A DNA stretch of 64,000 bases from Heterodontus francisci. Its lineage: Eukaryota. The stretch covers positions 76,095,699 to 76,159,698 of the forward strand of contig NC_090374.1 in the NCBI RefSeq assembly GCF_036365525.1, given 5' to 3'. The stretch's first letter is position 1, and each line of letters opens with the position of its first letter. Position numbers and translations under genes: made by a program. The notes under the pieces are model-generated. The model made no database searches. It worked only from the letters and a program-made list of their open reading frames with translations, and was not told where the DNA came from. Of this stretch, positions 15,516-61,476 are shown piece after piece.

Positions 15516-15650
15516 TAAAATAAAAATTAAAAGCAGATGCTGAAAATCTGAAAACAAGAACAGTAAAAGACTGGAAACACACAGCAAGTCATAACAGGCA
15601 GCATCTGTGGAGAAACTGAAGGAGGTCAGTCAGTTAACCTTTCGAGGTAA
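15516..15650 (-). mobile_element. Degenerate Penelope-derived terminal repeat
   Basis: GCAGATGCTGAAAATCTGAAAACAAG..GGCAGCATCTGTGGAGA..GTTAACCTTTCG; diverged member of the hammerhead-bearing family. Confidence 0.65.
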
Positions 15651-16080
15651 TTTAGACTTTGGACAATCGTGTAAAATGGCAGCTTAGCCACCTTTTAAAC
15701 ACTTCCCCCAGTTTTGGAAATGAAAATTGCGAGAGGTGTTTAAAAGGCGGCCGAGCTGATATCAACTATTTTACACTATTGTCCAAAGTACCCCCATCCA
15801 GTGTTAGTATCATGCCTCTCCAGATCACATATAATATGGGCTAGAAGAGAACTAAAGTTCATTCTACTTTGTTCCAGTATGGTGGCACAGAGTAACCTCA
15901 AGACTAAGTCAAACTCCTCGGTGCCAATTATAATACAAGATGTTTATAAAGTCCTTGTGCAACTTTAAACTTTAATAACTTTGGATGTACACATGTTAGA
16001 AAATGCATATGAAAGAATAATTCATCAATTTTAAAAAATGTTAATGCTGTTACTCTTTTTGTTAATGCTGTGATGAATCC

Positions 16081-16205
16081 ATTCTGATGAAAGGCTTGAA
16101 ATGTTAATTCTGTTTCTCTCTCCACAGATGCTGCCTGAACTGTTGAGTATTTCCAGCATTTTCTGCTTTTATTTCAGATTTCCAGCATCCGCAGTATTTT
16201 GCTTT
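16081..16205 (+). ncRNA. Penelope-derived repeat with a minimal hammerhead-like motif
   Basis: ATT-CTGATGA(16084-16090)-AAGGCTT-GAAA-TGT-T-AAT, followed by the family tail; stem II is shortened. Confidence 0.6.
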
Positions 16206-16289
16206 GAACTTGTTCCTAATAGTCTGGGTTGGATTTACTCATAAGTACCAGAGCAAAAGGGTAATACCATTCTAGCCATTCAAACTCTT

Positions 16290-16640
16290 CACTGTGTCAT
16301 AAATAAGGAAATTGAAACAGTTGTACTTTATTTCTGGCTTCCCATTCAGTAGAATTGGATTCCCCATCAGAGGAAATAAATTCTCTGTATATACCCTATC
16401 AAATCCCTTTATCATTTTAAAAACTTGATTAAGATCACTCCTCTATCTTCCAATCTCAGAAGTATGCATTCCTATTACAACCAGTCCTCATAATTTAATC
16501 TTTCTATTCCTGGTATCAATCTGGTGAATCTGTATTGTTCCACCTGCAAGACCAGAGGCTCGATGCCCAAAACTGAACACAATACACCAGATGGAGTTTG
16601 ATCAAGGCTCTGTACAACCGAAGCATCACTTCCAAACAAC
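16290..16640 (-). mobile_element. Old CR1 3' fragment
   Basis: Reverse complement resembles LYRALIKLHLVYCVQFW..RFTRLIPG..FKMIKGFDRV. Confidence 0.65.
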
Positions 16641-17324
16641 GCAACATCCCTTTAATAATTTTGATAACTCTTCTTTGTTTCTTTCCTGTTAATAAAAATT
16701 ATTCAAAATTTTAATTATATTGTTCTTTTCATTCAGATCTTGGACTTTTCATTTAGATTATAGGAACTTGACATCTGGGAGCCTACAGTTAGTTCATGCT
16801 GGTACGTTTGTTTTCCTTAGCCTCGTGGCAGAATCATTGATCCATGGAAAACATCCAACAGGCCATGGAAAATCGATGCACCAACACAAACACTGGGAGC
16901 ATGCTTATGGTTGCATGATCATTAAGTACAAATTGAAAGAACAATATAAAAGCACATAATAACATTAATAACTTACAACTTCATTTCAAAGAACACAGAA
17001 CTGGAAAAAAACAGATTTCTATTTCAAGTTGGTGTTTTGGTGTCTGGTTTACATTTTCGAAACGTTCAAATAGAACACTCGAAAACCAGAATATCCAATC
17101 TAAACCAGACAGATGACAATCCTAACCCCCTCCCCCTCCCCCCACCCACGATACTACTGGATCAGTTTAAAGTTGCAGCATCTTTTTAATGATTTTTATA
17201 TTAACTTATATTACAAAAGCAAAACATTCTTTGAACTTTCAGAACATCCTAAAAGTACTTGTTTTTCATTTTCATTCATTTGTGGTTTTATTTTACATGG
17301 CTTTTAGCTTATAAAAGGATTGAA

Positions 17325-17800
17325 AGGCTTCTTCTGATGACTCATCTGGTTAAGCCAGTGAATAGCTGAACCAGGGTTGATTCCTGGTCACTGCTGTGTT
17401 AGCTGATTTCAGCTGGGGTGGCAGAAGAACTACAATTCAACCATTGTTCACAGGTTAGGAGGAAGAATATCAGGATTCCTACTCTAGACTACTATCCAAT
17501 GACCCCTGCTGGAAGCATCATGTTTGAATGCTGGGTCTAGGCAAGTTTAAGTTCAGCTGTGATAATCCTAGTGTTATAATAGGCTGCTTACACTCAGGGG
17601 GTAAGATTCAATTTACCGCTGGATCCTAAAACCAGCACTGAGGAGCAGGCAAATCAATGGAATGGAAAATGGGCTGGTTCCTATAACTGGCACCTGGCCT
17701 ACAACACAGGTTTTATGCATTGACATTATTCACCGTCAAGGCTCACATGGGAATAATGATTACTTGGGAAAGGATCTGAACAAACTATTTGTGGAACTGT
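17325..17800 (+). mobile_element. Old tRNA-derived SINE (AmnSINE2-like), interrupted at about 17597-17725
   Basis: GGTTGATTCCTGGTC..GTTAGCTGATTTCAGCTGGGG..CTACAATT..TATCCAATGACCCCTGCTGGAA; related minus-strand copies at about 19050-19330 and 38930-39140. Family name is from memory. Confidence 0.5.
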
Positions 17801-17960
17801 AAGTGAACAAGGAATTGTGGGAAGCAGTTGCTACTTCCTCATAGTTGCTAATTGCATATTTGAAAGCCAGACATTCCTTGATTTTGTTTTGCATTTCATT
17901 TATGCTGACAACAAACACTCTTCCAATGTTTTGCAAAAACAGGAAAGGCAGTTCCTAATA

Positions 17961-18451
17961 TAAAATAAAAACAGCAAGTGCTAGAAATACTCAGCAGGTC
18001 TGGCAGCATCTGTGGAGAGAGAAACAGAGTTAACGCTTCAGGTCTGTAACCTTTCATCAGAACTGGCAAAGGTTAGATATGTAATAGGCTTTGAGAAAGT
18101 GAAAAGGGGGGGGGGTGGTGTTGGGGGAAGAAGAACAAAAGAGAAGATCTGTGATAGGGTGGAAGACAGGAGAGATTAAATGACAGAAATGTCTTGGAAC
18201 AAAAGGCAAAGGGAGTGGTAATAGTTGTAGTAAAAGATAAAGCATTAGTTCAGAGAGAGTGTTAATGACAGAATAATGAACAGCTCTATCAAAAAGCAAA
18301 AACATGAAAAACAGGTTTAAGAAAGGCACATGGTTAAAAAATAAAATAAAAATAAATGAAAAATGGAAATCATGCTCTGAATTTGTTGAACTCAATATTG
18401 GGTCCAGAAGATAAGAGTGCCTAATTGGAAGATGAAATGCCGTTCCTCGAG
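17961..18451 (-). mobile_element. Penelope-like element 3' end: GIY-YIG C-terminus, 3' UTR and hammerhead motif
   Basis: Minus 18451-18370 reads LEERHFIFQLGTL...GPNIEFNKFRA*. Then a pyrimidine-rich UTR and AGTT-CTGATGA-A-AGGT-TACAG-ACCT-GAAG-CGT-T-AACT at 18064-18028. Confidence 0.85.
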
Positions 18452-19049
18452 ATTGCTACTATAGCTGCCATGACTGGCAGCAAGTTGTATGAAGAGCCCT
18501 TGCAATAGCAACCAATGCCTTCCCAACGTGCAGACTTTACCAACTTTTATGAATTCCTCCAAACACCCAGTACTTCCAGAAACTCAGCAAGAGCCAATCG
18601 AAAGTAATAAGCAATTAACCTGCAGATTGAATGATGAATCCTTTAAGTAGCACTGGTGGGAGAGGACCTTATGCTGCTGAATGCATGTTCAGCTGTGCAT
18701 GTTTAAGAGAGGGTGCTAACTACAGCAGCAAGTCAAAAATGAAAGGTTGAGTGTCAAATCAGCGTAAGATGCTGACTGACCTCACGAGCTGCCCACGCTG
18801 CATAGCTTTGGGGCATGTACGTAATGTCCATGCTAAGGCCCTCACCAAGGTGGTGTTCAGTGCGGGCTGCACCTGAAGTAGACAGAAGCAGCATGAATGC
18901 CATTTTTCTACTGAACCGGCATGAGTAGTGCCAAAATTACTGGCACTACGGAGCTGAATTTTGCAGCCATTGACACTTCTATAGTTCCAAGGATAATTGA
19001 TCTGGGCACCCTTCCCATGTCAGCATGCTGCTTGTATGATTCTTGCAAA

Positions 19050-19330: not shown

Positions 19331-19518
19331 TAGGATAGCCTTGTGTTTTTTTAGTAATTGAATAATTAATTAATCAAGACACTGGTCAAAATTTGTAAAT
19401 CCACAAAACTTTACTCTTGAAATCCGTCAGCTGTGACTCAGTGGTAACACTCTCACCTGCGTCAGAAAGTGGTGGGTTCAAATTCCACTCCAGGTGATTT
19501 GAGCAAACAAATCTAGGC

Positions 19519-20547
19519 CAGGGTTATTCAACCTTTTCGCGTGGGGGCCACATTACAATTTTTGTATTACATAGGGGGCCGGTGAGACAATTTCGGAAAG
19601 ATAAAAGCATTAAAAATGTATCTTACTATTAATCAAAACAAAAACAAATGTGCATTTTTGTGAAGAAGCTTTAAATGAGATTAATTTATTGACTTACTTT
19701 CTCATCACTATATTGGACACTGATTTAGTGAGATACCTGGCATTTTTTTGCTTGCACAAGCAATCAATGTTTGTCTGCACACTTGTAGCGATGCAGAGTA
19801 TTCTGGATAGATGTCCATCTATCAGCAGTGATCTTGATCACTCTCTCTCTTTCTCTCCCTGTGTCCCTCCTCTTTGCGTTCCCACCCTCTGTGTTGTTCC
19901 CCCCTCTTGTTATTCCCCCGCCATGTCGTCCTCACTCTCTGTGTCCCCCCCCTCAATGTCCCCCATCTTTCTCTCTCTGCCCCTCTCTCTGTTCCCTCCT
20001 CTTTCTGTCCCCTCTCTCTGTTACCTCTCTCTCTCTCTCTCTCTGCCCCCTCTCTCTGTCTCCACCCCACTCTCTCTCTCCCCCCCAACATCGCCTCGCT
20101 GTCTCTCTCTATTTCTCTGTCCCCCCCACCCCATCTCTCTCTCTCTCCTCTCTCTCTTGACAGTTGCAGGGAGCGGGAATGCTCAGCAGAGCAGCTTTGT
20201 GGTTGGTCAGCTTTTTTTTTTAAAAGTCGCAAGCAAGTTTCATAGATGACAGGTGCTGTCATTGGGAACAGTGATTTTCCAACGTCAGTCAGATTCGGGG
20301 TTTTCTGACAGGCTTTTAAAAAAGGTGGAACCTAATGGTAAACCCCGAATCTGTCCGAAGTTGGGAAACCGCTGTTCCCAATGTCAGCACCTGTCAGCTG
20401 TGAAACAGACTTGCTACCTTTTAAAAAAGCCAGTTTGAAAGAAGAAGACAATGGGAAATTTCTCCTCTCTGAAATACATCTGCAGGCCAGATGGAAACCT
20501 TTGGCAGGACAGATCCTGGCCCATGGGCCTTATGTTGGACAACCATG
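19519..20547. mobile_element. Non-autonomous hAT (Charlie-like) DNA transposon
   Basis: Exact 8-bp TSD ATCTAGGC (19511-19518 and 20548-20555); imperfect TIRs CAGGGTTATTCAAC and GTTGGACAACCATG. Confidence 0.88.
19840..20157 (+). repeat. CT-rich low-complexity tract inside the hAT element
   Basis: Degenerate (CT)n and C runs, almost entirely pyrimidine. Confidence 0.9.
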
Positions 20548-22787: not shown

Positions 22788-22824
<37 letters not shown>

Positions 22825-27071: not shown

Positions 27072-27298
27072 GGGAGAGGAGTGGAGTCAGACCTATGAGG
27101 GAGCAGCTAAACAGCATGAGCAGATAAATACAGAGCCAGGCCCGGGGCCTGCAACTACCTTCGGGAGAGGAGTGGAGTCAGACCTGCGAGGGAGCCGCTA
27201 AACAGCAGGAGTGGATAAATACAGAGCCAGGCTCAGGGCCTGCACTTAGCTTCGGGACAGGAGTGGAGTCGGACCTGCAAGGGAGCACCTAGACAGTT
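27072..27298 (+). repeat. Tandem repeat of a 91-bp unit, about 2.5 copies, at the CR1 5' end
   Basis: GGGA(G/C)AGGAGTGGAGTC(A/G)GACCT starts at 27072, 27163 and 27254. Confidence 0.9.
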
Positions 27299-36800: not shown

Positions 36801-36857
36801 CGTCAGGATCCCTGCCCTGCCAGAAGAAGGTGTAGTCTTGCTCTGCTAGAGATCCAC
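33801..36857 (-). mobile_element. RTE-clade LINE (BovB/AviRTE-like), 5'-truncated, young
   Basis: APE domain (HGVGFAI, YAPTL, GDFNARVG, DTDHSL), RT (NYRGISLLS, FIDLTKAFD, LLFADDAAL), C-terminal CxxC..H..C, (GAA)n tail. Confidence 0.95.
33853..36855 (-). pseudogene. RTE endonuclease/reverse transcriptase ORF with two nonsense codons
   Basis: One continuous frame. Stops at 34201-34203 and 34012-34014; natural stop at 33853-33855 by comparison with the copy ending at 52743. Confidence 0.9.
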
Positions 36858-37109
36858 ATACTGGACTGACAATTGCATTTTTACAACTTGTACTGAAGGC
36901 TTGTTGAGCTGGCTTTTTTCCAAATAGTTTTCTTTGCAAATTGGGTGCGGCACAATATGAAGCAGGCCATTAATTACTTCAGCAACTCTTTTCTTAAGCT
37001 GATTGAAGCCTAAAGAAGACCATATGCCTATCATTAAGGTTGTGGAAAATGGGGTTTCTATTTCATATGCACCAGTGTCAGCATTTCAAACACTTCACTT
37101 TCACTGACT

Positions 37110-39713: not shown

Positions 39714-40527
39714 TGTCATGCTAGGCCCCCCCACCTGCACATTAATTTTGTCATGAAAATTCATTTTAAACTGTTAGTGGGGTGAAGAAAGGACTTGTTA
39801 AACAGATCAGCTGTGGCTGGATTAGACATTTGCATATTAACAGATGGTGATTGAAAGGACAAAGGACCATTCCCTGACACATTCAACCCACAATGGACTG
39901 TTGATCGCCAGATATTGTATGTAAGAGCAGCATTCCAGAGACTACTGTAATCCAAGACATGACTATAATAAAAGCAAAATACTACAGATGCTGGAAATCT
40001 GAAATAAAAACAAGAAATGCTGGAAATACTCAGCAGGTCTGGTTCTCTCAAGCCTCTAAATCCACTGAAGACACATGAACCCCAAGAGAGAAAAGTCCCT
40101 TACAGCGAACAAGGTTTAAGAATATTGGGCCCCATCAAAAAGCAAGATCAAGGATTCCAGAGTGAGCTCGAAGAACCGTAACAAAAGCTCTTCAGATATT
40201 GCCTCTAACTTTTCCACTTTATTTTTCTTCTGCTCTTTTCTATCTCTATTTGCATGTGTGTATCGTGTATGCATGCTAGCGTGGGTGTGTCGTGTATCCA
40301 TAGGCATTAACGGAATTAGAGTTTAAGTTTAATAAATTTCAACTATTTTTTAAACCTAAGAAAGCCTGTTTGTGCTGGTGTCTTTGCCTTATAATTGGAA
40401 AGCGGTGAACAATGATTCACCAAGGGGGAGCTAAAAACACGGTGTGTTTAAAATGAAACCCTGTTACACTAAGACCAGGTGAAGGCTGAAAGGGAACCCT
40501 AGACCTCTTTCTCACCTGGTCGTAACA
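39714..40527 (+). mobile_element. 814-bp solo LTR (Gypsy-like)
   Basis: TGTCATG...CGTAACA ends; exact 4-bp TSD AGGG (39710-39713 and 40528-40531); CR1 sequence is continuous across it. Confidence 0.85.
39966..40042 (-). mobile_element. Penelope-derived tail fragment inside the solo LTR (no hammerhead)
   Basis: AAAAGCAAAATACTACAGATGCTGGAAATCTGAAATAAAAACAAGAAATGCTGGAAATACTCAGCAGGTCTGG. Confidence 0.8.
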
Positions 40528-42369: not shown

Positions 42370-43580
42370 TGTAGTGTCTAAAGCAGGAAGCATAAATCAG
42401 GAATTATAAAGTAGATTTAAATCTAGTACAAAAAGTGAAGTAAAGATTGGAAGAAAAGATGGGGGAAAAGAGAGAGCTAAAAGCAACAGACAGTAAAAAT
42501 ATAGTGCTACACAGTCAATGACATTCTGCCCTTTCTGTTTCAGGACAAGGTGGCACACAATAGATGGGAGCAGAGCAGATTGGCAGGGGACGAGGATGCC
42601 TGCATTGCCTGAACATTACAGAGGAGATGGTCGGGGTCCGTGGCATCCGGCATTGCTGAGAATATTGAGGATAATGGTAGGTTCCTGCCATATCCCCCTT
42701 CTCAACTCCAAACACACTCTCATACTGCTATCTGGCATGATGAACAAGCTTCTGATGGTGTCACCATGGACTTCTTGCTTCCTACCCCACATCCCCTTCT
42801 CTCACACCCCTTCTGATTTCCTGCTTTCAGACACCCAGAACAGCCTCCTGGTCAACCACAGGAGCCTCAGGAGCAGGAGAGAGAGAGAGAGAGCAACGGC
42901 TCAGCATTGATGAAGAGGCCCAGCCACTTGATCTGACAGTTGCAGCCACCAGTTCAGATACCAGACCACCACATGCCTTGGAGGCAAGTATAGAGTTGGT
43001 ATCAGCATATGGTGAGTCTTCTGGACACAAGTGTGCCGCAACCAGACAAAGGGTAATGCATGGTTCATTTGCCACCTCACTGGAGGGTGAGGTCGCAGAT
43101 GGGTTCTGCTGCAGAGGACTCAGGTGAGGAACTCAATGGGGTGACATAGAGGAGAATGCTGATGGTCATGCACACTAGATGCTGGGTGCATTGGCTGGCC
43201 TGCCAGACAGTCTCCTTTCACTGTCAAGGAGCATGGAGGAGTCTGGATCCAAGTCGGCAGAGGGCATTGCACAGAGCTAGCCCTCTCTGCAGCCTCTGCT
43301 CCATCTCCCCGTCATGCTGCAGACCCAGAGGTACTGCAACTGCTTCCCCTATACCTGCTGCAGCCTATGTATGGACAGGTCACCGATTCCTCTGCCATCC
43401 TTGTGAGGATGCAGCAACACTCTGACAAATCCAGCAACTCACCACAACACCTCCAAAAACAGTCCGCAGTACTTCCGGACACTTTGAAATAGCGGACGTT
43501 CTTAAAAATGACCTGACCTGCAATTTGGGTGCCTGACCTTTTAAGGAATGCCAGTACAAAGCCCATCTTGCAGCTTAACA

Positions 43581-43915
43581 TAGGCACCAACGACATAGGT
43601 AGGAAGAGAGATGGGGATTTAAGGCAGAAATTCAGGGAGCGAGGGTGGAAGCTTAGAACGAGAACAAACAGGGTTGTTATCTCTGGGTTGTTGCCCGTGC
43701 CACGTGCTAGCGAAGCGAGGAATAGGGAGAGAGAAGAGTTGAACACGTGGCTGCAGGGATGGTGTAGGAGGGAGGGTTTTGGTTTCCTGGATAATTGGGG
43801 CTCTTTCTGGGGTAGGTGGGACCTCTACAAACAGGATGGTCTTCACCTGAACCAGAGGGGTACCAATATCCTGGGGGGGAGATTTGCTAGTGCTCTTCGG
43901 GGGGGTTTAAACTAA
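43581..43915 (+). pseudogene. CR1 ORF1 C-terminus (SGNH esterase-like)
   Basis: GTNDIG..VVISGLLPVP..DGLHLN. Confidence 0.9.
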
Positions 43916-44031
43916 TTCAGCAGGGGGATGGGAACCTAAATTGTAGTTCCAGTGTACAGGATGTTGAGAGTAGTGAGGTCAGGGTTAAGGTTACAAGGAC
44001 GCAAGAGGGCACTGGCAAGCAAGAACCTGGT

Positions 44032-46783
44032 TTAAAGTGTGCCTACTTCAACGCCAGGAGCATCCGGAATAAGGAGGGTGAGCTTGCAGCATGGGTTGGT
44101 ACCTGGGATCTCGATGCTGTGGCCATTTCGGAGACATGGGTAGAGCTGGGACAGGAATGGATGTTGCAGGTTCCGGGATTTAGATGTTTCAGTAAGAACA
44201 GAGAAGATGGTAAAAGAGGGGGGTGTGTGGCATTGTTAATCAAGGAGAGTATTACGGCGGCAGAAAGGACATTTGAGGACTCGTCTACTGAGGTAGTATG
44301 GGCCGAGGTTAGAAACAGGAGAGGAGAGGTCACCCTGTTGGGAGTTTTCTAAAGACCTCCGAATAGTTCCAGAGATGTAGAGGAAAGGATAGCGAAAATG
44401 ATTCTCGACAGGAGCGAGAGTAACAGGGTAGTTAGTATGGGGGACTTTAACTTTCCAAATATTGACTGGAAATACTATAGTTCGAGTACTTTAGATGGGT
44501 CAGTTTTTGTCCAGTGTGTGCAGGAGGGTTTTCTGACACAGTATGTAGACAGGCCAACCAGGGGCGATGCCACATTGGATTTGGTACTGGGTAATGAACC
44601 CGGCCAGGTGTTAGATTTAGATGTAGGTGAGCACTTTGGTGATAGTGATCACAATTCGGTTAGGTTTACCTTAGCGATGGGCAGGGACAGGTATATACCG
44701 CAGGGCAAGAATTATACCTGGGGGAAAGGAAATTATGATGCGATTAGGCAAGATTTAGGATGCGTAGGATGGGGAAGGAAACTGCAGGGGATGGGCACAA
44801 TCGAAATGTGGAGCTTATTCAAGGAGCAGCTACTGCGTGTCCTTGATAAGTATGTACCTGTCAGGCAGGGAGGAAGTTGTCGAGCGAGGGAGCCGTGGTT
44901 TACTAAAGAAGTTGAAGCGCTTGTCAAGAGGAAGAAGAAGGCTTATGTTAGGATGAGACGTGAAGGCTCAGTTAGGGCGCTTGAGAGTTACAAGCTAGCC
45001 AGGAAGGATCTAAAGGGAGAGCTTAGAAGAGTGAGGAGAGGACACGAGAAGTCATTGGCGGATAGGATCAAGGAAAACCCTAAGGCTTTCTATAGGTATA
45101 TCAGGAATAAAAGAATGACTAGAGTTAGATTAGGGCCAATCAAGGATAGTAGTGGGAAGTTGTGTGTGGAATCAGAGGAGATAGGGGAAGCGTTAAATGA
45201 ATATTTTTCGTCAGTATTTACAGTAGAGAAAGAAAATGTTGTCGAGGAGAATACTGAGATACAGACTACTAGGCTAGATGGGATTGAGGTTCACAAGGAG
45301 GAGGTGTTAGCAATTTTGGAAAGTGTGAAAATAGATAAGTCCCCTGGGCCAGATGGGATTTATCCTAGGATTCTCTGGGAAGCCAGGGAGGAGATTGCAG
45401 AGCCTTTGTACTTGATCTTTATGTCGTCATTGTCGACAGGAATAGTGCCGGAAGACTGGAGGATAGCAAATGTTGTCCCCTTGTTCAAGAAGGGGAGTAG
45501 AGACAGCCCTGGTAATTATACACCTGTGAGCCTTACTTCGGTTGTGGGTAAAATGTTGGAAAAGGTTATAAAAGATAGGATTTATAATCATCTTGAAAAG
45601 AATAAGTTCATTAGCGATAGTCAGCACGGTTTTGTGAAGGGTAGGTCGTGCCTCACAAACCTTATTGAGTTTTTTGAAAAGGTGACCAAACAGGTGGATG
45701 AGGGTAAAGCCGTGGATGTGGTGTATATGGATTTCAGTAAGGCGTTTGATAAGGTTCCCCACGGTAGGCTATTACAGAAAATACGGAAGTATGGGATTGA
45801 AGGTGATTTAGAGCTTTGGATCAGAAAGAAGACAGAGGGTGGTGGTTGATGGCAAATGTTCATCCTGGAGTTTAGTTACTAGTGGTGTACCGCAAGGATC
45901 TGTTTTGGGGCCACTGCTGTTTGTCATTTTTATAAATGTCCTGGATGAGGGTGTAGAAGGGTGGGTTAGTAAATTTGCGGATGACACAAAGGTCGGTGGA
46001 GTTGTGGATAGTGCCGAAGGATGTTGTAGGTTACAGAGGGACATAGATAGGCTGCAGAGCTGGGCTGAGAGATGGCAAATGGAGTTTAATGTGGAAAAGT
46101 GTGAGGTGATTCACTTTGGAAGGAGTAACAGGAATGCAGAGTACTGGGCTAATGGGAAGATTCTTGGTAGTGTAGATGAGCAGAGAGATCTTGGTGTCCA
46201 GGTGCATAAATCCCTGAAAGTTGCCACCCAGGTTAATAGGGCTGTTAAGAAGGCATATGGTGTGTTAGCTTTTATTAGTAGGGGGATCGAGTTTCGGAGC
46301 CACAAGGCCATGCTGCAGCTGTACAAAACTCTGGTGCGGCCGCACCTGGAGTATTGCGTGCAGTTCTGGTCACCGCATTATAGGAAGGATGTGGAAGCTT
46401 TGGAAAGGGTGCAGAGGAGATTTACTAGGATGTTGCCTGGTATGGAGGGAAGGTCTTATGAGGAAAGGCTCAGGGACTTGAGGTTGTTTTCGTTGGAGAG
46501 AAGGAGGAGGAGAGGTGACTTAATAGAGACATATAAGATAATCAGAGGGTTAGATAGGGTGGATAGTGAGAGTCTTTTTCCTCGGATGGTGATGGCAAAC
46601 ACGAGGGGACATAGCTTTAAGTTGAGGGGTGATAGATATAGGACAGATGTCAGAGGTAGTTTCTTTACTCAGAGAGTAGTAGGGGCGTGGAACGCCCTGC
46701 CTGCAACAGTAGTAGACTCGCCAACTTTAAGGGCATTTAAGTGGTCATTGGATCGACATATGGATGAAAATGGAATAGTTTAG
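44032..46783 (+). pseudogene. CR1 ORF2 (APE endonuclease and RT) with one stop and one frameshift
   Basis: YFNARSI, AISETW, MGDFNFP, GDSDHN, KSPGPDG, DFSKAFD, GVPQGSVLGP, KFADDTK; TAA at 44350-44352; frameshift near 45825. Confidence 0.93.
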
Positions 46784-47767: not shown

Positions 47768-49062
47768 TAAGAGGTGAGGTAAAAGTGACTGCCCTTGACA
47801 TTAAGGCAGCATTTGACTGAGTATGGCATCAAGGAGCCCCAGCAAAACTGGAGTCACTGGGAATCGGGGGAAAACTCTATGCTGGTTGGAGTCATACCTA
47901 GCACAAAGGAAGATGGTTGTGGTTGTTGGAGGTCAATTATCTCAGCTCCAGGACATCAGTGCAGAAATTCCTCAGGGTAGTGTCTTAGGCCCAACCATCT
48001 TCAGCTGCTTCATCAATGACCTTCCTTCAATCATAAGGTCAGAAGTGGGGATGTTCGCTGATGTTTGCACAATGTTCAGCACCATTCGCGACTCCTCAGA
48101 TAATGAAGCAGTCCATGTAGAAATGCAGCAAGACCTGGACAATACCCAGGCTTGTGCTGATAGAGTGGCAAGTAACATTTGTGCCACACAAGTACCGGGC
48201 AATGACCATCTCTAACAAGAGAGAATTTAACCATCTCCCCTTGACATTCAAGGGTATTACGATCGATGAATCCCCCGCTATCAACATTCTGGGGGTTATC
48301 ATTGACCAGAAACTGAACTGGAGTAGCCATATAGATACCGTGGCTATAAGAGCAGGTCAGAGGCTCGGAATCCTGCGGCGAGTAACTCACCTCCCGACTC
48401 GCTAAAGCCTGTCCAACATCTACAAGGCACAAGTCAGGAGTGTGATGGAATACTCTCCACTTGCCTGGATGGGTGCAGATCCATCAACACTCAAGAAGCT
48501 CAACACCATCCAGGACAAAGCAGCCCACTTGATTGGCACCCAATCTACAAACATTCATTCCCTCCACCACCGACACACAGTGGCAGCAGTGTGTACCATC
48601 TACAACAAAAACAAGAAATGCTGGAATCACTCAGCAGGTCTGGCAGCATCTGTGGAAAGAGAAGCAGAGTTAACGTTTCGGGTCAGTGATCCTTCTTCGG
48701 AACCCTCTACAAGATGCACTGCAGCATTGCACCAAGGCTCCTTAGACAGCACCTTCCCAACCCGTGACCTCTACCACCGAGAAGGACAAGGGCAGCAAAT
48801 GGTTGGGAACACCACCACCTGCAAGTTCCCCTCCAAGCCACACACCATCCTGACTTGGAACGATATCGTTGTTCCTTCACTGTCGCTGGGTCATAATCCT
48901 GGAACTCCCCTCCTAACATAACTGTGGGTGTACCTACCCCACATGAACTGCAGTGGTTCAAGAAGGCACCTCACCACCATCTTCTCAAGGGCAATTAGAG
49001 ATGGGCAATAAATGCTGGCATAGCCAGCGATGCCCACATCCCATGAATGAATTTTAAAAAAA
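47768..49062 (+). mobile_element. CR1-group LINE of a second family, 5'-truncated
   Basis: ALDIKAAFD, PQGSVLGPTIFSCFINDLP, MFADVCTMF, YKAQVRSVMEYSPLAW; tail CCCACATCCCATGAATGAATTTTAAAAAA. Confidence 0.88.
48606..48703 (-). ncRNA. About 98-bp Penelope-derived hammerhead unit (CCGAAGA variant core)
   Basis: Minus strand GTT-CCGAAGA-A-GGATC-ACT-GACCC-GAAA-CGT-T-AAC; flanked by TCTACAA (48599-48605 and 48706-48712). Confidence 0.72.
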
Positions 49063-50460: not shown

Positions 50461-51114
50461 ATGAATGAGAGTGGAAAAGGCGCTGACTTTCAGTGATCTC
50501 TGTCACAAACCTTTATTTTCATGACAGTGTTGAAGTTGTATACGTATTGAAAGTCATTAGCTGAACTGACAATCCTGATCTTTTACAAGTGAAACCCCCT
50601 GCTCTTCTCATTATATCTAAATGCCCATCCCCACCTCAGCCAATATCAGATGCCCCTCCTGACTTGATCAGTATCCATGTTAAACACTTTGCCTGGGGTG
50701 CATCCCAAACCCTTTTGCTCCTCCCACACACTTTGTGATTGCTCTTATCTTTCCAACCAACTGCCACTCAGAGTGAAGAGTTGATTGGGTAGGGCTGACT
50801 CAACATTTTCAGTGCTAATGAAGAAAACAGTTTCTTTTCATGTTCTGAAGATCCAGGGATAGCTTCATACCACAATATTCTCAACGCCAGAATGAAACCA
50901 TTCAGCAAGAGAAAGAACTTGCATATAAAAGGCACCTTTCATGTCCTCAGGACAGCCCTAATTGCTTTACAGCCAATGAAGTACTTTTGAAGTGCAGTCA
51001 CTGTTGTAATGTGGGAAAATTCAATTGGTAATTTATTCACAGCAAGATTCCACAAACACCAATGCAATAAATGAGAGATAATCTGTTTTAATAATATTGA
51101 TTAAAGGAGAACTA

Positions 51115-52801
51115 CAGATACAGGAGAAATGCCGTGAACAACAGATGCCCCTCTGTGTTGCTTTCATTGATCTCACCAAAGCCTTTGACCTCGTCAGCAG
51201 ACATGGTCTCTTCAGACTACTAGAAAAGATCAGATATCCACCAGAGCTACCAAGTATCATCACCTCATTCCATGACAATATGAAAGGCACAATTCAGCAT
51301 AGCGGTGCCTCATCAGACCCCTTTCCTATCCTGAGTGGCGTGAAACAGGGCTATGTTCTCGCACCTACACGGTTTGGGATCTTCTTCTCACTGCTGCTGT
51401 CACATGCGTTCAAGTCTTCGGAAGAAGGAATTTTCCTCCACACAAGATCAGATGGCAGGTTGTTCAACCTTGCCCGTCTTAGAGCGAAGACCAAAGTACA
51501 GAAAGTTCTCATCAGGGAACTCCTCTTTGCTGACGATGCTGCATTAACATCCCAAACAGAAGAGTGCCTGCAGAGACTCATCGACAGGATTGCGGCTGCC
51601 TGCAACGAATTTGGCCTAACCATCAGCCTCAAGAAAACGAACATCATGGGACAGGACATCAGAAATGCTCCATCCATCAATATTGGCGACCACGCTCTGG
51701 AAGTGGTTCAAGAGTTCACCTACCTAGGCTCAACCATCACCAGTAACCTGTCTCTAGATGCAGAAATCAACAAGCACATGGGAAAGGCATCCGCTGCTAT
51801 GTCCAAACTGGCCAAGAGGGTGTGGGAAAATGGTGCACTGACATGGAACACAAAAGTCCGAGTGTATCAAGCCTGTGTCCTCAGTACCTTGCTCTGTGGC
51901 AGCGAGGCCTGGACAACGTATGTCAGCCAAGAGCGACGTCTCAACTCATTCCATCTTCGCTGCCTCCAGAGAATCCTTGGTATCAGGTGGCAGGACCATA
52001 TCTCCAATGCAGAAGTCCTCGAGGTGGCCAACATCCCCAGCATATTTTTTTTTTTTTTATTTCCAAAATATACTTTATTCATAAACATCTGTAAAAATTA
52101 CATTGCCAGACAGTTTCCAAACAGCACCAAAAAATACAAACATTGCAAGGGAGATCAGTTTCCTTCAATACTGTCATGAGTTCCTTCCCAACCCTTCCTT
52201 TTCACAATTGTCATGTCAATTACAGTTTTACATTTACAGCAATTGAGAATATTAACGATACAGTTCGAGGGGTTTCCCATGGATCCAGCCCCTCAGTCCA
52301 GCTTGGTGGGGGAACCTTACACTGTCCAGCATATACACCCTGCTGAGCCAGTGGCACTTGAGATGGCTTGGCCATGTGAGCTATACGGAAGATGGCAGAA
52401 TCCCCAAGGACTCATTTTACAGCGAACTCGACCCACTGGCCATCCATGTCTCCGCTTTAAAGACGTTTGCAAACGCGACATGACGTCCTGTGACATTGAC
52501 CACAAGTCGTGGGAGTCAGTTGCTAGTGATCGCCAGAGCTGGTGGACAGCCATAAAGGCGGGGCTAAAGAGTGGCGAGTCGAAGAGACTTAGCAGTTGGC
52601 AGGAAAAAAGACAGAAGCGCAAGGAGAGAGCCAACTGTGTAACAGCCTCGACAACCAATTTTATCTGCAGCACCTGTGGAAGAGTCTGTCACTCTAGAAT
52701 TGGCCTTTATAGCCACTCCAGGCGCTACTTCACAAACCACTGACCACCTCTAGGCGCTTACCCATTGTCTCTCGAGAGACAAGAAGGCCAAAGAAGAAGA
52801 A
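51115..52801 (+). mobile_element. RTE LINE, 5'-truncated, same family as 33801-36857
   Basis: Exact 16-bp TSD GATTAAAGGAGAACTA (51099-51114 and 52802-52817); RT motif FADD; (GAA)n tail. Confidence 0.95.
52045..52325 (-). mobile_element. Poly(A)-tailed retro-insert, probably the 3' UTR of an L1/Tx1-clade LINE
   Basis: Minus-strand AATAAA and poly(A); TSD CCAGCATA(T) at 52037-52045 and 52326-52334; begins ACA GTG TAA, a possible ORF end. Confidence 0.7.
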
Positions 52802-55193
52802 GATTAAAGGAGAACTATTGGCCAGAACATTAGGAGAACACCTGTGCTTTTCTTCAAATAGTGCCATGGAATCTTTTTCTGTCCACCTGAGAGGATCGGA
52901 TTGACCTTGGTTTCACATCTCATCTAACAGACGGCAACCTCTGACAATGCGGTACTTGCTCAGTACTGCACCAAAGAGTCAACCTACATTATGTGTTCAA
53001 GTCTCTAGAGAGGGACTTGAGCCCAGGGCCTTCTGATTCAAAAAAGAGAGTGCTAACATTGAGCCAAGGCTGACACCTATTAAAAAAATGTAAGAAACAA
53101 CTGTGGAGCATGTGCTAAAAGGTAGTTTAAAGCGGACATTGGTGGTATGAGGAGATGTAAAATTTGAGTCTGCTAAATTGAAATCATTCCTAAATTTATA
53201 ACTGTATCTCTACCCAGAGTGAGACTCAGTAACATTTTAAAGATCGTAACTAATATGCAGTTCGATCTATTTAGGCATGCTTGACACAGCAGACAATATG
53301 GTAAATGTATAGAGACATTGAGGGTAATTGTATCCACAATCCCTCCATATAACTATCATGATGGAAAGAAAAATCAGGCAGGTGTATAATGGGCGGCTGA
53401 TTCGATATCGCCTGTTTTACATCATCGAAAGAAGTTAGAATTACCCCCATAATCTTTTGCAAACAGTGAAGGAACTGCCCCAAAAGATTGTTCATTTTTA
53501 AGAAGAGCTAAAGGAGTGATGCATCATTGAATATTTTCAGATTATTAAGTAAATTATCTTGGAGAGTAGCAACACTTTACCTCTTATTCCTTTAAAAGTT
53601 GCATCACTGGGTAAATATAATGCCAAAGAAAGAGTCTGTAGACATTTTTCCATGACTGCAAGAAAATGGATCCAATCTTAAAAAAATTTGTCTGGTAACC
53701 TTAACTCTATCCTTGCTCATCAAAGTAAAAGCTGCAATTTGTTTGTGTTTGCTTTCAGATAATGAACCAAACTGACCTTTGTCCCAGACTGTACAAACAG
53801 ATTTTTAACATGAAGGAGATTTGTTAAAATACGCAGTTTAGGTATTTGAGTTTATTCAGGATGGCTACAGAAATTTTCTGACATTGGATGCAAGTGGTTC
53901 AGTGGTGCACAATTTCTGATTTGTGTATTTCCAGAGAAAGACAGATTTTCCAAACAAGCTTTCCCTGAAGACAGTGCAAAATACAAATGCTGACAGCAAT
54001 TTTCTAGCTATAATGTAAATGATCACAAAAGGTATTAATAAAGAAATTAAGCATTCCTGTGGGCCTTCCATTACCTGGGCCTTATCTTTCACTCGGGCTA
54101 TTGTGATGTTAATCGTGATTGTTTGCACCAGAACAGGAAAACAGCTTTTTGTTTCATACAGTATTGCTGTTCTTCCATTTGATTGCATAAATTGTGATTT
54201 ATGGTCACTTTTATTCCATTTATCGGGTCCATACTGCTGTCAGCATGACTGTCACCAGGTATCAGAGATGAGATAGCAGAGGAGAGGTGATCAGGAGAGA
54301 CAGAGAGTCCAGGATTCCTCCCGCTCTAGTTGTATGCTTACAAAATTTCAATTACAATTTGGGGGTCGGGGGTCGCGGGTGGGGGGAAGGGGGCGGGGTG
54401 CGTGGAAAGCAGCTCCAGTGGCATTCTTATCCTTTTGGGATCAGGAGTGTTTTTGTTTTCTATGTTAAACAACCTGAGATATGGCTATGTTGCAACTTGT
54501 CAACAGCAACACCTGACGGCCTTATCAGCATCACTGAGCTACAAATGTTCTTCATATTATCCTTACTCCCTCCCTCAGGAGCCAATTGTTAAGGCTTCAA
54601 ACAGCTGCAAAAAACAAATCTAGATTCTGTCTGGCAGCTGTATAAAAAAAGTGGCATATGGCTTGCTTCATTTTTTTGGCACAATCGCTCTCCTGGATTA
54701 ATTGGTGAAATTTGAGGAGTTAAGTATTTTGAGATGATCCCTCTAGCGAAAAGGTAAATTGCAAAATCATGTTTCTTTGATGTTTAGCATTATAAATGAT
54801 GGGAATGCTTGACTAAGAGCCTTTAAACAGCAACAGAGTACTGCAGAAATACTTTTGTTATAATGTTGATAGTAGGAGTTTTTCTTTTACATAGTCTTCT
54901 TGACAATTTTGTAATGATTTGTGCATTTATATAAGTAACTAATTGTGCACTAGAAGAGTTTATTAAATACTATTACATTGTAATGATTTTACAGGAAGTA
55001 TTATTCTGTTTCATTAGTAATTACATCAACACAAAATTCTAGTGTATAGTTCATTTAGTGATTCATTTGATACGTGGTGCATTGTTCATTTGAGGCCACC
55101 ATACAGGCTTGGTGTAGCATGCGCAGTGTGCCACTAGATGGATTCGTTAATAAAATTCAGTTTACAGCAGTAATCCAGAAGATAGTGCTGTGT

Positions 55194-55293
55194 AATAAAA
55201 ACAAGAAATGCTGGAACCACTCAGCAGGTCTGGCAGCATCTGTGGAAAGAGAAGCAGAGTTAACGTTTCGGGTCAGTGACCCTTCTTCGGAAC
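55194..55293 (-). ncRNA. 100-bp Penelope-derived hammerhead unit (CCGAAGA variant core)
   Basis: Minus strand GTT-CCGAAGA-A-GGGTC-ACT-GACCC-GAAA-CGT-T-AAC; 14-bp flanking repeat AGATAGTGCTGTGT (55180-55193 and 55303-55316). Confidence 0.75.
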
Positions 55294-55663
55294 AAAATCG
55301 CCAGATAGTGCTGTGTGTTTTTTTCCAGAGATTTACAATAGCAGATCTACAATATGAGATCTTACTGTTATATATTGTTATACTGTCTGTAAAGTGCTAG
55401 GAACTAATTAGCTAGGAACTAGTTGTTATGTGTAAGTGTCCAAGTGGGGCCACATTCATGGCTGCACTGGAGAATCATGTGATATGTAACAGAAAACCAG
55501 TCTAGCCAGTCCCTACCAGGCAGCATGGTGAGCTGTATTAAACACAAAGAGCTCCAGCCATTCCAAGTCTAAAGTGTGATTATTTCCAACATCAGGGAAC
55601 CAGAAAACAACAAGAAGATGTAACACTTACAATGGCGACGAGGATGGAATCTGCAGTTGCTTT

Positions 55664-57529: not shown

Positions 57530-58102
57530 AAGTTCTGGGCACCACACCTTAGGAAGGATATATTGGGCTTGGAGGGAGTGCAACGTAGGTTTACAAGAAT
57601 GATATCTGGACTACAGGGGTTAAGTTACAAGGAGAGATTACACAAATTAGGCCTGTTTTCGCTAGAATTTAGAAGGTTAAGGGGTGATCAGATTGAAGTC
57701 TTCAAGATATTAACAGGAAAAGACAGGCTTGATAAAGATTATCTATTTCCACTGGCTGGAGATTCTAAAACTAGAGGGCATAGTCTAAAAATTAAAACCA
57801 GACCATTCAGGAGAGATGTTAGGAAGCACTCCTTCATGCAAAGGGTGGTAGGGGTTTGGAACTCTCTCCCACAAACAGCAGTTGAAGCTAGAACAGCTGT
57901 TAATTTTAAATCTGAGATAGATTTTTGTTAAGCAAAGATATCAAGGGATTTTTTTAAAAATTCATTCATGGGATGTGGGCGTCACTGGCCAGGCCAAGGA
58001 TATGGGCCAAAGGCAGGTATATGGAGTTAGGCCGTGGATCACCCATGATCTCATTGAAATACGGGACAGGCTCGAGGGGCTGAATGGCCTACTTGTTCCT
58101 AT
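57530..58102 (+). mobile_element. CR1 3' fragment in Gypsy pol, with an about 46-bp antisense tail of the other CR1 family at about 57948-57993
   Basis: LEGVQRRFTRMISG..FMQRVVGVWNSLP; the insert is the reverse complement of the CCCACATCCCATGAATGAA tail. Confidence 0.85.
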
Positions 58103-58607
58103 GAAATGCCAGTCACGTTCCAAGAAACCAGAACAAATGCTGTATTCTTTGTCATATCTGCAGAAAGTGACACACTCATCAGTTTCCACACAACAACAGA
58201 TCTGTGCATGTTTGCAGCCACGTATGCAGTTCCTATGCGTACCAACAACATTCTTGAACTATATGCTGATTGCTTCACAGTATCAGTAAACTGAAGGGTG
58301 TTACATGCAAGCTGCATTTAGATCCCAAAGTGTGTCCAGTCGTGTATCACATTGACTAATAGTGTCCCATGTCAGAAAGAAGACAGAGAAGGAACTTCAG
58401 CGCTTGTTTGACCTTGACGTCGTTGAGAATGTTCGGGATGAACCGACCCCTTGGGTCTCACCTATACAAGTTGTTAAGAAACCTAAGAGTGAGAACAAGA
58501 TCAGGTTCTGTATCGATATGAGGTCTCCAAAGTAATCAATATAACGAGAAAGACATTTGACGCTGACAATTGACAACATAATAGAGAAAGTGAATGGTGC
58601 CAAAAGT

Positions 58608-59181
58608 TTCATACCAAATCCCGTTCACCTATCACCCCTGTGGTCGCTGACCTACATTGGCTCCCAGCCAAGCAGCATCTTGATTTTAAAATTCTCATCT
58701 TTGTTTTCCAATCCCTCCGTGGCCTCGCCCCTCCTTATCTCTGTAAGCTCCTTCAGCCCCACAACCCTCTAAGACATCTGTGCTCATATTATTCTGGCCT
58801 CTTGACCATCCCTAATTTTAATCACTCAACCATTGGTGACCATGCCTTCCGTTTCCTAGGCCCTAAACTCTGGAATTCCCTCCCTACACCTCTTTGAATC
58901 TCTACCTTGCTTTCCTCCTTTAAGAAACTCCTTAAAACTTACATCTTTGACCAAGCTTTATGTCATCAAACATAATATCTCCTTATGTGGCTCAGTGTTA
59001 TATTTTGTTTTATAACACTCCTGTGAAGTGCTTTTGGACTTTTTCTAACATTAAAGCCACTATATCAATATAAGTTGTTGTTATGTGGCTGGGTATCAAA
59101 TTTTGTTTGATAACACTCTTGTGAAGCACTTTGAGGCACTTTAGGTTTTTAAAAGGCACTATATAAATGCAGGTTGTTGTT
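58608..59181 (+). mobile_element. L2 LINE 3' fragment with a duplicated tail
   Basis: LHWLPAKQHLDFKILIFVFQSLRGLAPPYL..LWNSLP; two tail copies. Confidence 0.88.
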
Positions 59182-59410
59182 ACCCAAAATGTGCTTACAT
59201 TTCTTTGTACATTCGTAAGTGCATGATCTAGTCACTAAATATGGCATTTCTCTATGGTAGCTGAACCATTCCTAAAATAAATGGTGCACTGCACAGTTGG
59301 CTTAATGAACTTTTTGACATTTATATTTGTTAAGCATCTTGATAACTGTTATAGGTGCAGTAAAAGATAATTACTGCAGGTGCTATAATGTGCAGCTACA
59401 AGTTTTTTAC

Positions 59411-59558
59411 CTTTTTAAAAATCGTTCCTGGGATGTGGGTGTCGCTGGCTAGGCCAGCATTTATTGCCCATCCCTAATTGCCCTTGAGAAGGTGATGGTG
59501 AGCTGCCTTCTTGAACCGCTGCAGTCCATGTGTGGTAGGTACACCCACAGTGCTGTTA
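59411..59558 (-). mobile_element. Short CR1-type 3' end (family of 47768-49062)
   Basis: Reverse complement of about 48915-49060. Confidence 0.88.
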
Positions 59559-61137
59559 CTGTTAACAATATCACAATCTTAGGAATGCTTTTTCAAAGTT
59601 GTATGTTTCTGTGATTTTGCTATAGAATCAATAATTAGCAATGATAAATTGATGTTTAGTTCATTTTTTGACAAAAGAAATATTTAAAAAGTTTAGTAAC
59701 TGTAGTAATAAACATGCTATTCCAAGCCTATTCTGATTGTTAAATCCTGTTATATTTAGACAAAATTGATTTTTGAAGACCCATTGGATTAGATTTTCCC
59801 CCACTTGCCAGCAGTGCATTGGTTTGGGATACTCATTCACCCACGTAACACCACTGGGACACTATCACGTGTTCCTAGAGGGTAACCTCATCTTGTATGC
59901 AGGTCAACTTTTGAGTGGTACTTCTCCTGAGCAGCCTACTTCCTTTGGTTGGGAGGGAATTGTGGTATAGCTGTAACTCACAAAAGGCCATAACTGCTTA
60001 AAGAACACCTACATGGGGAAATAAAGACCATACAAAGAAAAAGAGCAAATCAACACAATGGCAGAAGGAAGAGCAGCCTTCAGAGTCTCTAGATTCTAGA
60101 CCTAGATTCTCAGATGGAAGTTGTATTGGCAGAGCTAAGGGTAAGGAGAGATTGCCCCTTGGGTAGTCCTCACTCTATGAAAGAATTTCTATACATGAAA
60201 TAATATAAATGAAATACTTATAACACAAGCTGTGCCTGGGTCTTGTATACTGGTAGGAAATGAGCATGCACCTGATGTCTCCCTTTCTTACTCCACTAAA
60301 TGCAGTATTGATAGTACACTGAATCCAATATCCATTGACAGATTAGTTTGTTTTCAACTTAAATATGTAGTGACCTATGTGTCAGTACAGGAATAGAATC
60401 TGCATCCTCTGCAATGTTGCCAGTTACATAGAAGGGTTAGCAATGCATGGGTTAACACATGTGCTGTGCAAGCTTTGTGTGACAGGACATGCACTAGGAA
60501 TTCAGGTTCCTTGGGTAGCCCATCCCACCAAATTTTCTATCTATTCATTTGAATGGCTAGGAGATCCCACAATGTTCAATGACCTCCATACTCAAATTTC
60601 TGATACATGCCTCCAACATGCAGAGCTTTGCCAGCTGGCGAACTCATAAAATCTATGCAGTAGCATGTCATCCATTTACCTTCCTATTATAGCAGTAGTA
60701 ATTAGTTTAACTGCCCTTTAGTATTGTAATGCCTATAAGCCAATTCCTCCAAAAAGTAATTTGAGACTGTATGAGAAACAGCTGGAAAATGTGTACCCTT
60801 TGATATTATTTCCCTGTAACCCTGAAGTAGCACAGATGTTCTCTGCGCAATAGACATTCATTTCAAGGCTACAGTAATCTTTTACTTTACACTTATTATT
60901 ACACAATAAAAACATTGAAGTAATTTGAACTTTCACTGCTTGGGATGTAAACTGGTAGAGCAGATTACCCCAATTGTTATAGATCATCATTTCCTGGAAA
61001 TAAAATTTGGGTGGGTTCAATAACAGGCAGTCACCTTCTCTATCAGTTCACCACCCAAACAGTGAAGGTGAAAATGATTTCCATTGATTTTACTGATGGG
61101 ATTTGAAAATCTTTGTAAATTTAGTAAGTTTAATATA

Positions 61138-61387
61138 TTTTATATGTTGTTATATTATCTGTAAAGAGCTAGGAACTAAGTAGCTAGGAACTAATTGTTA
61201 TGTGTAAGTGCTCCAGGGCCAGTTTCATGGCTGCACTGGAGAGTCATGTGATGTGTAACACTACACCGCTCTCGGGCAGTCCTTACCAGACAGAATGGAA
61301 GCTGAATGATATAAACAAAGACATCAAGTACTTTTAAGCTTAAAGAGTGTTTATTTCTAATTTATGGGAACCAGAAGAATTAATATG
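61138..61387 (+). repeat. LTR related to 55366-55612
   Basis: Shared GCTAGGAACTAA.TAGCTAGGAACTA.TTGTTATGTGTAAGTG and TTCATGGCTGCACTGGAGA.TCATGTGAT. Confidence 0.75.
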
Positions 61388-61388
61388 G

Positions 61389-61476
61389 TATAAAAACAAG
61401 AAATGCTGGAACCACTCAGCAGGTCTGGCAGCACCTGTGAAAAGAGAAGCAGAGTTAACGTTTTGGGTCACTGACC
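61389..61476 (-). mobile_element. Penelope-derived unit truncated inside hammerhead stem II
   Basis: Near-identical to 55194-55281 and stops at GGTCACTGACC. Confidence 0.8.

What the first reader, a model, noticed from the sequence alone, without database searches (positions are those of the whole stretch)
15516..61476. Dispersed family of about 100-bp hammerhead-ribozyme units derived from a Penelope-like element
Seen: eight full or partial copies (about 15516, 16081, 17961, 30262, 39966, 48606, 55194, 61389). Five keep the layout stem I (A)GTT - C(T/C)GA(T/A)GA - A - stem II hairpin - GAA(A) - (C/T)GT - T - AAC(T). Stem II differs in sequence but still pairs (GGGTC/GACCC, AGGT/ACCT). Known: Penelope-like elements carry minimal type I hammerheads whose palindromic stem III (here A-C-G-U) works in dimers. 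Inferred: these units spread as a very small SINE- or retrozyme-like non-autonomous family.
Basis: partly seen in the sequence, partly recalled or inferred. Interest (0 to 1): 0.8.

Follow-up and report, generated by a model that had tools for sequence, protein, structure and literature searches.

The report
Cap-ended short Penelope retrotransposon copies
The short ribozyme-bearing repeats are not a separate mini-element but pieces of an ordinary Penelope-type jumping gene, and about a third of its young copies look like DNA copies of just the first 100-135 letters of its capped RNA, which hints at how these elements start copying themselves.

Summary
The eight copies are real, but they are ends of an autonomous 3.2-kb Neptune-type Penelope-like element (RT + GIY-YIG), not a separate SINE or retrozyme. 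One window copy runs 390 bp further, into the ORF end. 29 of 91 young genomic copies extend at least 238 bp upstream, and short and long copies share their variants. Minimal hammerheads, tails and inverted pairs are known PLE features. The 5' ends are not random, though: 33 of 91 sit within 5 nt of the first base of stem I (about 1 expected), and none sits at the predicted ribozyme cut. These ends show an excess of G before the first A (127 of 200 junctions, background 42%), like a copied mRNA cap. 6 of 52 short tailed copies continue into sequence found only on the ORF side of the tail. Best reading: reverse transcription primed internally near the 5' end of the capped element mRNA runs off the cap and is inserted as a dead-end copy, bypassing the ribozyme. 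No RNA start was observed. The scan noted the same 5' clustering earlier in another shark-like genome (e1-7858714).

The parts
15513..15660 (-). Old, diverged pLTR-end copy with tail; hammerhead degenerate
   Evidence: 74-77% to other copies
16081..16205 (+). Short copy starting about 1 nt inside stem I, stem II mostly deleted, with tail
17961..18456 (-). 5'-truncated copy of about 500 bp of the older subfamily: last codons of the ORF (broken), 3' UTR, hammerhead (about 18029-18064), no tail
   Evidence: 77% over 511 nt to long copy L114
30262..30364 (+). Short copy starting at about -2, no tail, inside a CR1-type LINE remnant
39966..40043 (-). 3' fragment (+60 to tail end), no hammerhead
48604..48703 (-). 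Young short copy starting at position 0, no tail; 7-bp target-site duplication (48599-48605 and 48706-48712) with two extra G between it and the element start
   Evidence: read directly from the sequence
55194..55293 (-). Young short copy with an intact minimal hammerhead, no tail; 14-bp target-site duplication (55180-55193 and 55303-55316) with 9 extra nt at the 5' junction
55258..55293 (-). Minimal type I hammerhead of that copy: stem I, core with C in place of U4, extra A, 5-bp stem II, GAAA, CG palindrome; predicted cut between 55262 and 55261 (triplet GUU)
   Evidence: sequence; cleavage not tested
61389..61497 (-). Short copy whose core is disrupted by an inserted stretch; 5' end reads G + AGTTC at about 61497

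Best explanation
The units are insertion products of an autonomous Neptune-type Penelope-like retrotransposon (3247-bp unit, one ORF with RT, Cys linker and C-terminal GIY-YIG; SHOWN). The hammerhead lies in its pseudo-LTR (SHOWN as a motif; activity not tested). Its mRNA starts at the A just before hammerhead stem I and is capped (INFERRED from junctions). The element's protein nicks AT-rich DNA and primes reverse transcription internally at one of two sites, about +99 and +135, either side of the 35-nt tail (two 3' end classes SHOWN; internal priming known for Anolis Poseidon, PMC11167929). When priming happens in the 5' pLTR of the mRNA, the RT runs off the capped end after 100-135 nt, often copying the cap as an extra G, and the short cDNA is joined to the target. 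Priming on both target strands gives head-to-head pairs with a tail on one arm only (INFERRED). Longer copies are ordinary 5'-truncated products. The ribozyme cut plays no part in making the short copies, which are mostly dead on arrival.
For: Parent: 7 of 30 best hits extend into a GIY-YIG/RT ORF; tandem array of a partial pLTR plus two units, 99.66% identical; 676-aa frame with DKG, YIDD, Cx4CxxC linker and YIG motifs, Pfam GIY-YIG below cut-off (E 0.003), Atlas neighbours RT/GIY-YIG proteins at 0.97-0.98. Hotspot: 33 of 72 copies reaching +5 end within -5..+5, against 10 of 39 over the next 232 nt; expected 1.0, p about 1e-41. Independent 800-kb sample: 13 of 56 at -5..+5, 18 extend further. 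Genome-wide, 19,288 of 36,362 exact 0..+21 matches carry the 11 upstream bases (mutation not corrected for). Cap-like G before the A: 63 of 100, 64 of 100 in an older subfamily, 35 of 49 junctions with no element-derived upstream letters, background 0.42 (counted by eye). An extra G marks full-length L1 5' junctions (PMC11702581, passage). ORF-side continuation past the tail in 6 of 52 short tailed copies (6 of 32 reaching +135; chance 0.005 each, p 1e-8). 3' ends: 43 at +93..108, 47 at +130..147, 1 into the ORF, of 91. A tail on exactly one arm in 10 of 11 inverted pairs.
Against: No RNA start was observed; only contigs were available. The parallel test of G vs C before position 0 (81:19) is not significant against the CpG-depleted background (p=0.35). 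Only 2 of 21 copies that hold the tail-ORF junction start at about 0; 5 start at +41..49, 4 at +78..128, 10 extend upstream, so long products rarely end at the supposed cap. The sequence before position +1 also fits a 3' splice acceptor, and the D. virilis Penelope intron ends at helix I (PMC4209133). In Anolis Poseidon the hammerhead lies at the ORF start, and in D. virilis the transcript starts about 120 nt upstream of helix I, so the geometry is not the same. One site (+7) differs between short and long copies (10 of 31 vs 3 of 32, uncorrected p=0.03, 1 of 7 sites). The young sample comes from the first 12 Mb of one contig only.
Confidence: 0.62

Rival explanations
1. Same start and cap, but many templates are transcripts from the promoters of the tens of thousands of truncated or short copies, mobilised in trans. 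The unit would then work like a SINE without being a separate lineage.
For: The D. virilis pLTR promoter is internal and a 3' pLTR can drive transcription (PMC2377424). 46 of 52 short tailed copies do not show 4 or more nt of ORF-side continuation. Both arms of L174 share two variants, one a CpG decay, as if copied from a mutated template.
Against: For only 1 of 31 short copies is another short copy nearer than any long copy. ORF-side continuation is seen in 6 of 52. Anolis Poseidon needs RNA extending beyond the priming sites (PMC11167929).
Confidence: 0.17
2. The hotspot is not the RNA's end but a structural or protein-caused RT stop, or a splice junction, at the 5' foot of the hammerhead.
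For: Branch-point-like, pyrimidine-rich sequence ending in AG directly before +1 (sequence; consensus recalled). The D. virilis intron ends at helix I (PMC4209133). A second cluster at +11..13 (10 of 91) sits at stem II.
Against: RT has already passed the fold at position 0, and the monomer folds no better than shuffles (z -1.0 to +1.4). No shared upstream exon is seen; duplications mostly abut the element. Exon ends would favour A over G at -2 (recalled), the opposite.
Confidence: 0.13
3. One reading: an independent non-autonomous SINE or retrozyme family spreading through ribozyme-cut or circular monomers.
For: Very high copy number (39,464 exact 33-mers; 57 hits in 800 kb), clustered ends, target-site duplications in most solo copies (20 called of 26, a few of them weak 6-mers). 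Animal retrozymes derive from pLTRs (bioRxiv 10.64898/2026.07.22.740005).
Against: No end at the cut site (0 of 91), no tandem arrays of short units (0 among 57 hits), sequence shared with the autonomous element, no private lineage.
Confidence: 0.05
4. Purely random 5' truncation of a long element.
For: Upstream of -5 the ends are scattered from -33 to beyond -2300; heavy 5' truncation is typical of PLEs (PMC8557442).
Against: About 30-fold excess of ends in an 11-nt window, seen in two samples, with a base bias at the junction in two subfamilies.
Confidence: 0.03

Closest known systems
Endonuclease-positive Penelope-like elements, Neptune clade (Craig et al. 2021, PMC8557442)
   Same: One ORF with RT, Cys linker and C-terminal GIY-YIG; partial tandems forming pLTRs; 30-40-bp tail often at one end only; inverted 5'-truncated neighbour; heavy 5' truncation.
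   Different: Here a third or more of young copies share one 5' end with a cap-like G; the passages read describe only variable truncation.
[quoted passage not shown]
   Same: 4-bp stem I, extra base between positions 9 and 10.1, palindromic 15.2-16.2, no stem III, thousands of dispersed single motifs attributed to truncated PLEs.
   Different: Stem II is 5 bp; the youngest subfamily has C at position 4 and U at 17; copy ends do not map to the cut site.
Anolis Poseidon in vitro (Frangieh et al. 2024, PMC11167929)
   Same: Two adjacent internal RT start sites bounding the tail, extension on both target strands, AT-rich targets, uncut RNA as main template.
   Different: A different clade and ribozyme position; that work did not, in the parts read, describe genomic run-off copies ending at a capped start.
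Non-LTR retrozymes (PMC7229834; bioRxiv 10.64898/2026.07.22.740005)
   Same: Type I hammerhead, pLTR ancestry, co-occurrence with PLEs.
   Different: Retrozymes are head-to-tail arrays processed to circular RNA; these units are solo or head-to-head and are not bounded by cut sites.
Minus-strand strong-stop DNA of retroviruses and LTR retrotransposons (recalled)
   Same: Short cDNA primed near the RNA 5' end that runs off the cap over a sequence repeated at the 3' end.
   Different: Primed by nicked target DNA, not tRNA; inserted as such; transfer to the 3' repeat is not shown here.

Membership tests
EN+ Penelope-like element (Neptune) | Single ORF with RT and C-terminal GIY-YIG | tested here: met
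   Motifs in the 676-aa frame of L034; Pfam GIY-YIG E 0.003, below cut-off; Atlas 0.97-0.98 to RT/GIY-YIG clusters
EN+ Penelope-like element (Neptune) | CX2-5CxxC linker between RT and EN (Neptune/Nematis) | tested here: met
   Residues 542-550
EN+ Penelope-like element (Neptune) | Clade placement by RT phylogeny | not tested
   No reference PLE proteins at hand; Neptune rather than Nematis is inferred from the vertebrate host
EN+ Penelope-like element (Neptune) | Partial tandem pLTR, tail, inverted neighbours | tested here: met
Minimal type I hammerhead | Conserved core and extra base before stem II | tested here: met
   C3, A6, A9 invariant and G5, G8, G12 at 90% or more in 32 aligned copies; position 4 is C in the youngest subfamily; shared ancestry alone could give this
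Minimal type I hammerhead | Stems I and II with covariation | tested here: inconclusive
   93% paired against 14-46% for slid partners; only 1 of 9 pairs covaries in many copies (A-U/G-U/G-C); stem I barely varies
Minimal type I hammerhead | Self-cleavage as dimer or with protein | not testable with these tools
   needs an in vitro assay
Non-LTR retrozyme | Head-to-tail tandem arrays of hammerhead units | tested here: not met
   No adjacent same-strand short units among 57 hits in 800 kb; the two same-strand neighbours lie 0.8 and 2 kb apart
Non-LTR retrozyme | Units bounded by the cleavage site; circular RNA | tested here: not met
   0 of 91 5' ends at +32; circular RNA itself not testable
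SINE-like non-autonomous family | Own lineage with diagnostic variants apart from the partner element | tested here: not met
   p=0.09, no variant private to short copies; one site skewed (uncorrected p=0.03)
SINE-like non-autonomous family | Defined ends and target-site duplications | tested here: met
SINE-like non-autonomous family | Own internal promoter and transcript | not testable with these tools
   only contigs were offered

The most novel reading that the evidence does not exclude
The short copies are trapped strong-stop intermediates of the normal cycle: every round starts by target-primed synthesis in the 5' pLTR of the capped mRNA, runs off the cap, and normally transfers by homology to the 3' pLTR to go on through the 3' UTR and ORF. 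A second run-off and transfer would build the partial upstream copy, which would explain how pLTRs are regenerated. The hammerhead at the very 5' end would then serve to set the RNA's 3' end in the downstream pLTR, or as a protein-binding fold, rather than to release monomers.
Probability: 0.25. Interest if true: 0.8.

Novelty: new variant of a known kind. Interest (0 to 1): 0.5.

Why it matters
[quoted passage not shown] Tens of thousands of young insertions here record one RNA end to the base, two priming sites and two-strand priming. They give a specific, cheap prediction (capped start at the A before stem I, short run-off cDNA, ribozyme bypassed). They also warn that dispersed minimal hammerheads with sharp ends need not be SINEs or retrozymes.

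Tried and rejected
Rfam scan: no hammerhead hit. PDB sequence search and NCBIfam gave nothing useful for the ORF. Monomer folding is no better than shuffles. G vs C before position 0 is not significant once CpG depletion is allowed for. The first 30 loci were biased by my query, which began with two flank bases, so they were not used for the 5'-end distribution; they were used. RNA evidence: only Logan contigs, RNA status mostly guessed; the depth step over the short unit and loose ends at position 0 in one run would also come from DNA or intronic copies, so no conclusion. Strand-transfer test by linkage between 3' UTR and short-unit variants in 48 long copies: the haplotype table shows mosaics but mostly retained linkage; the statistic crashed and was not rerun; inconclusive, and transfer within one RNA would not break linkage. 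Idea that fold-back pairs are a replicating family: one shared junction occurs only twice genome-wide; the test for a second junction was mis-built and is uninformative. Searches that found no paper on this short capped class or on shark PLE hammerheads; the library lacks most subscription papers and Repbase.
Full report
Coordinates. Position 0 is the G of the GTT strand of stem I (window 55293 in the copy at 55194, minus strand). The predicted ribozyme cut is between +31 and +32.

Observation. All eight copies are present and far above chance: 8 hits at E 9e-36 to 2e-14, next at 0.28. Five show the hammerhead layout, one intact (55194). Three carry a ~35-bp tail. The copy at 17961 continues to 18456, through a 3' UTR into the broken end of an ORF. 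Copies 48606 and 55194 have 7- and 14-bp target-site duplications. The window is repeat-rich DNA of a 6.0-Gb animal genome, full of LINE remnants; 'shark-like' rests on a recalled SINE motif and on earlier notes, not on a call.

Parent element. Of 30 best genomic hits, 7 extend at least 130 bp upstream, four of them 1.5 kb. At G000:C3 a 257-bp partial pLTR precedes two 3247-bp units that are 99.66% identical. A 676-aa open frame in L034 has DKG, YIDD, a Cx4CxxC linker and a YIG motif; Pfam GIY-YIG matches below cut-off and the nearest Atlas clusters are RT/GIY-YIG proteins. This is the layout of a Neptune-type Penelope-like element as described in PMC8557442 (passages read); no tree was built. 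The ORF starts at +171. Counts: 39,464 exact matches to a 33-mer of the young subfamily, 1,992 tail-ORF junctions, and 57 hits in 32 of 80 evenly spaced 10-kb stretches, which extrapolates to roughly 400,000 arms.

Ribozyme. Rfam has no match. In 32 of 42 candidate copies (10 dropped as truncated, deleted or out of register) the core is conserved, 93% of stem cells pair against 14-46% for slid partners, and one stem II pair covaries between subfamilies. This agrees with the minimal hammerheads of PMC4209133 (parts 1-2 of 4 read), which already reports thousands of dispersed single motifs and low cleavage. Activity is untested; the youngest subfamily has C at position 4 and U at 17.

Ends. I fetched the first 80 of 89 regions around the 100 listed young matches (91 copies, first 12 Mb of contig C1). 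5' ends: 6 at +30..58, 0 at +20..29, 13 at +6..19, 33 at -5..+5, 10 at -6..-237, 29 extend at least 238 nt. With the upstream rate, 1.0 end is expected in the 11-nt window (p about 1e-41). None is at +32. In the 800-kb sample of mixed ages, 13 of 56 mapped hits end at -5..+5, 15 at +6..28, 10 at +29..80 and 18 further upstream (1 hit unmapped). 3' ends fall in two classes, 43 near +99 and 47 near +135, the two sides of the known tail. Of 57 short copies 31 were called inverted, 20 with duplications, 6 without. In 10 of 11 pairs with both arms scored exactly one arm has the tail (p=0.006), and 10 of 11 share the subfamily tag. This matches the two internal priming sites and two-strand extension shown for Anolis Poseidon, where uncut RNA is the main template (PMC11167929, parts 1-2 of 4 read).

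Why position 0. Three lines point to a capped RNA start at the A at -1. (a) Among junctions with a purine before that A, G outnumbers A: 63 of 100, 64 of 100 in the older subfamily, and 35 of 49 after removing 50 rows with element-derived upstream letters and 1 mutated long copy; background is 0.42; p 2e-5, 9e-6 and 3e-5. These rows were counted by eye, and overlap. An extra G marks full-length L1 junctions (PMC11702581, passage). The parallel G:C test at -1 (81:19) is not significant against the CpG-poor background. (b) The sequence around that A fits the initiator consensus (recalled), and D. virilis Penelope has an internal promoter in its pLTR (PMC2377424, passages and Discussion). (c) About 8-10 of 100 junctions repeat the first 7-9 bases, as if RT reached a true template end and re-aligned (by eye).

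Which template. Six of 52 short tailed copies continue at least 4 nt into the sequence that follows the tail only on the ORF side (chance 0.005 each; p 1e-8); 1 of 20 copies classed long does, and that one (L144) is a short inverted copy starting at -16. In L005 these bases are absent from the target site. In others part of the match is also target sequence, so priming by microhomology or target preference contributes. At least some short copies therefore came from the 5' pLTR of ORF-bearing RNA. Short and long copies are not separate lineages: mean distances 3.49, 3.31 and 3.46, p=0.09; 24 of 31 short copies lie within one difference of a long one. One site is skewed.

Against. No RNA start could be seen. 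Of 21 copies with the tail-ORF junction only 2 start near 0; 5 start at +41..49, 4 at +78..128, 2 at -11/-15 and 8 at or beyond -172. The five just past the predicted cut are unexplained and may reflect cleaved templates. The upstream sequence also resembles a splice acceptor.

Comparison. Hammerheads in pLTRs, tails, inverted neighbours and internal priming are in print. Retrozymes (PMC7229834, passages; bioRxiv 10.64898/2026.07.22.740005, parts 1-3 of 5) are head-to-tail arrays, which these are not. PMC6155905 and PMC11371274 were seen as passages and added little. The dimer-cleavage paper of Lunse and colleagues is recalled, not read. A fixed, cap-marked class of short PLE insertions was not found in searches; supplements were not read (those of the bioRxiv paper are closed) and may list shark motifs. 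Earlier notes of this scan reached similar readings in other genomes; I had stated the transcript-start idea before opening them, and they are not evidence.

Verdict. Observation confirmed; SINE/retrozyme reading not supported; the units are products of a known kind of element, with a well-supported but unproven new detail: run-off from the capped 5' end after internal priming. Interest 0.5.

Noticed in passing
window 62790-63440 (+): 3' end of a second, unrelated Penelope-like family: GIY-YIG-like frame followed by a decayed hammerhead-like motif near 63375.
   Followed up: no
L162 and L174 (G000:C1:9970016 and 11891743): Two head-to-head insertions at unrelated targets share the same junction and a rare variant; the junction occurs only twice genome-wide, 1.9 Mb apart. 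Similar shared junctions in L138/L149/L157 and L119/L143/L168. Unexplained.
   Followed up: partly
rows, e.g. G000:C1:20793150: Reiterated first 7-9 bases at the 5' junction, up to three times, reminiscent of telomerase-like template re-alignment.
   Followed up: no
L175, L176, L183, L190, L194: Five of 21 copies holding the tail-ORF junction start at +41..49, just past the predicted ribozyme cut.
   Followed up: partly
L012, L037, L045: Long inverted pairs have arms of similar length (-133/-133, -315/-386, -530/-548), as if two RTs advanced together.
   Followed up: no
L180 (G000:C1:22287678-22288420): A 130-nt piece of tail plus ORF start is joined directly to a pLTR end starting at -27.
   Followed up: no
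window 20215-20428: 89-bp inverted repeat, 83% complementary, arms 36 nt apart, beside a TC-rich tract; MITE-like.
   Followed up: no
window 34201-36969 (-) and 51082-52743; 43517-46783 (+): A 922-aa RTE/L2-type LINE frame with a 92% identical inverted second copy, and a near full-length CR1-type LINE.
   Followed up: no
window 7413-7895 (+) and 176-736 (-): Remnants resembling a Harbinger-type transposase and an LTR-retrotransposon protease (names recalled from motifs).
   Followed up: no
window 27072-27296: 2.5 copies of a 91-bp tandem repeat.
   Followed up: no
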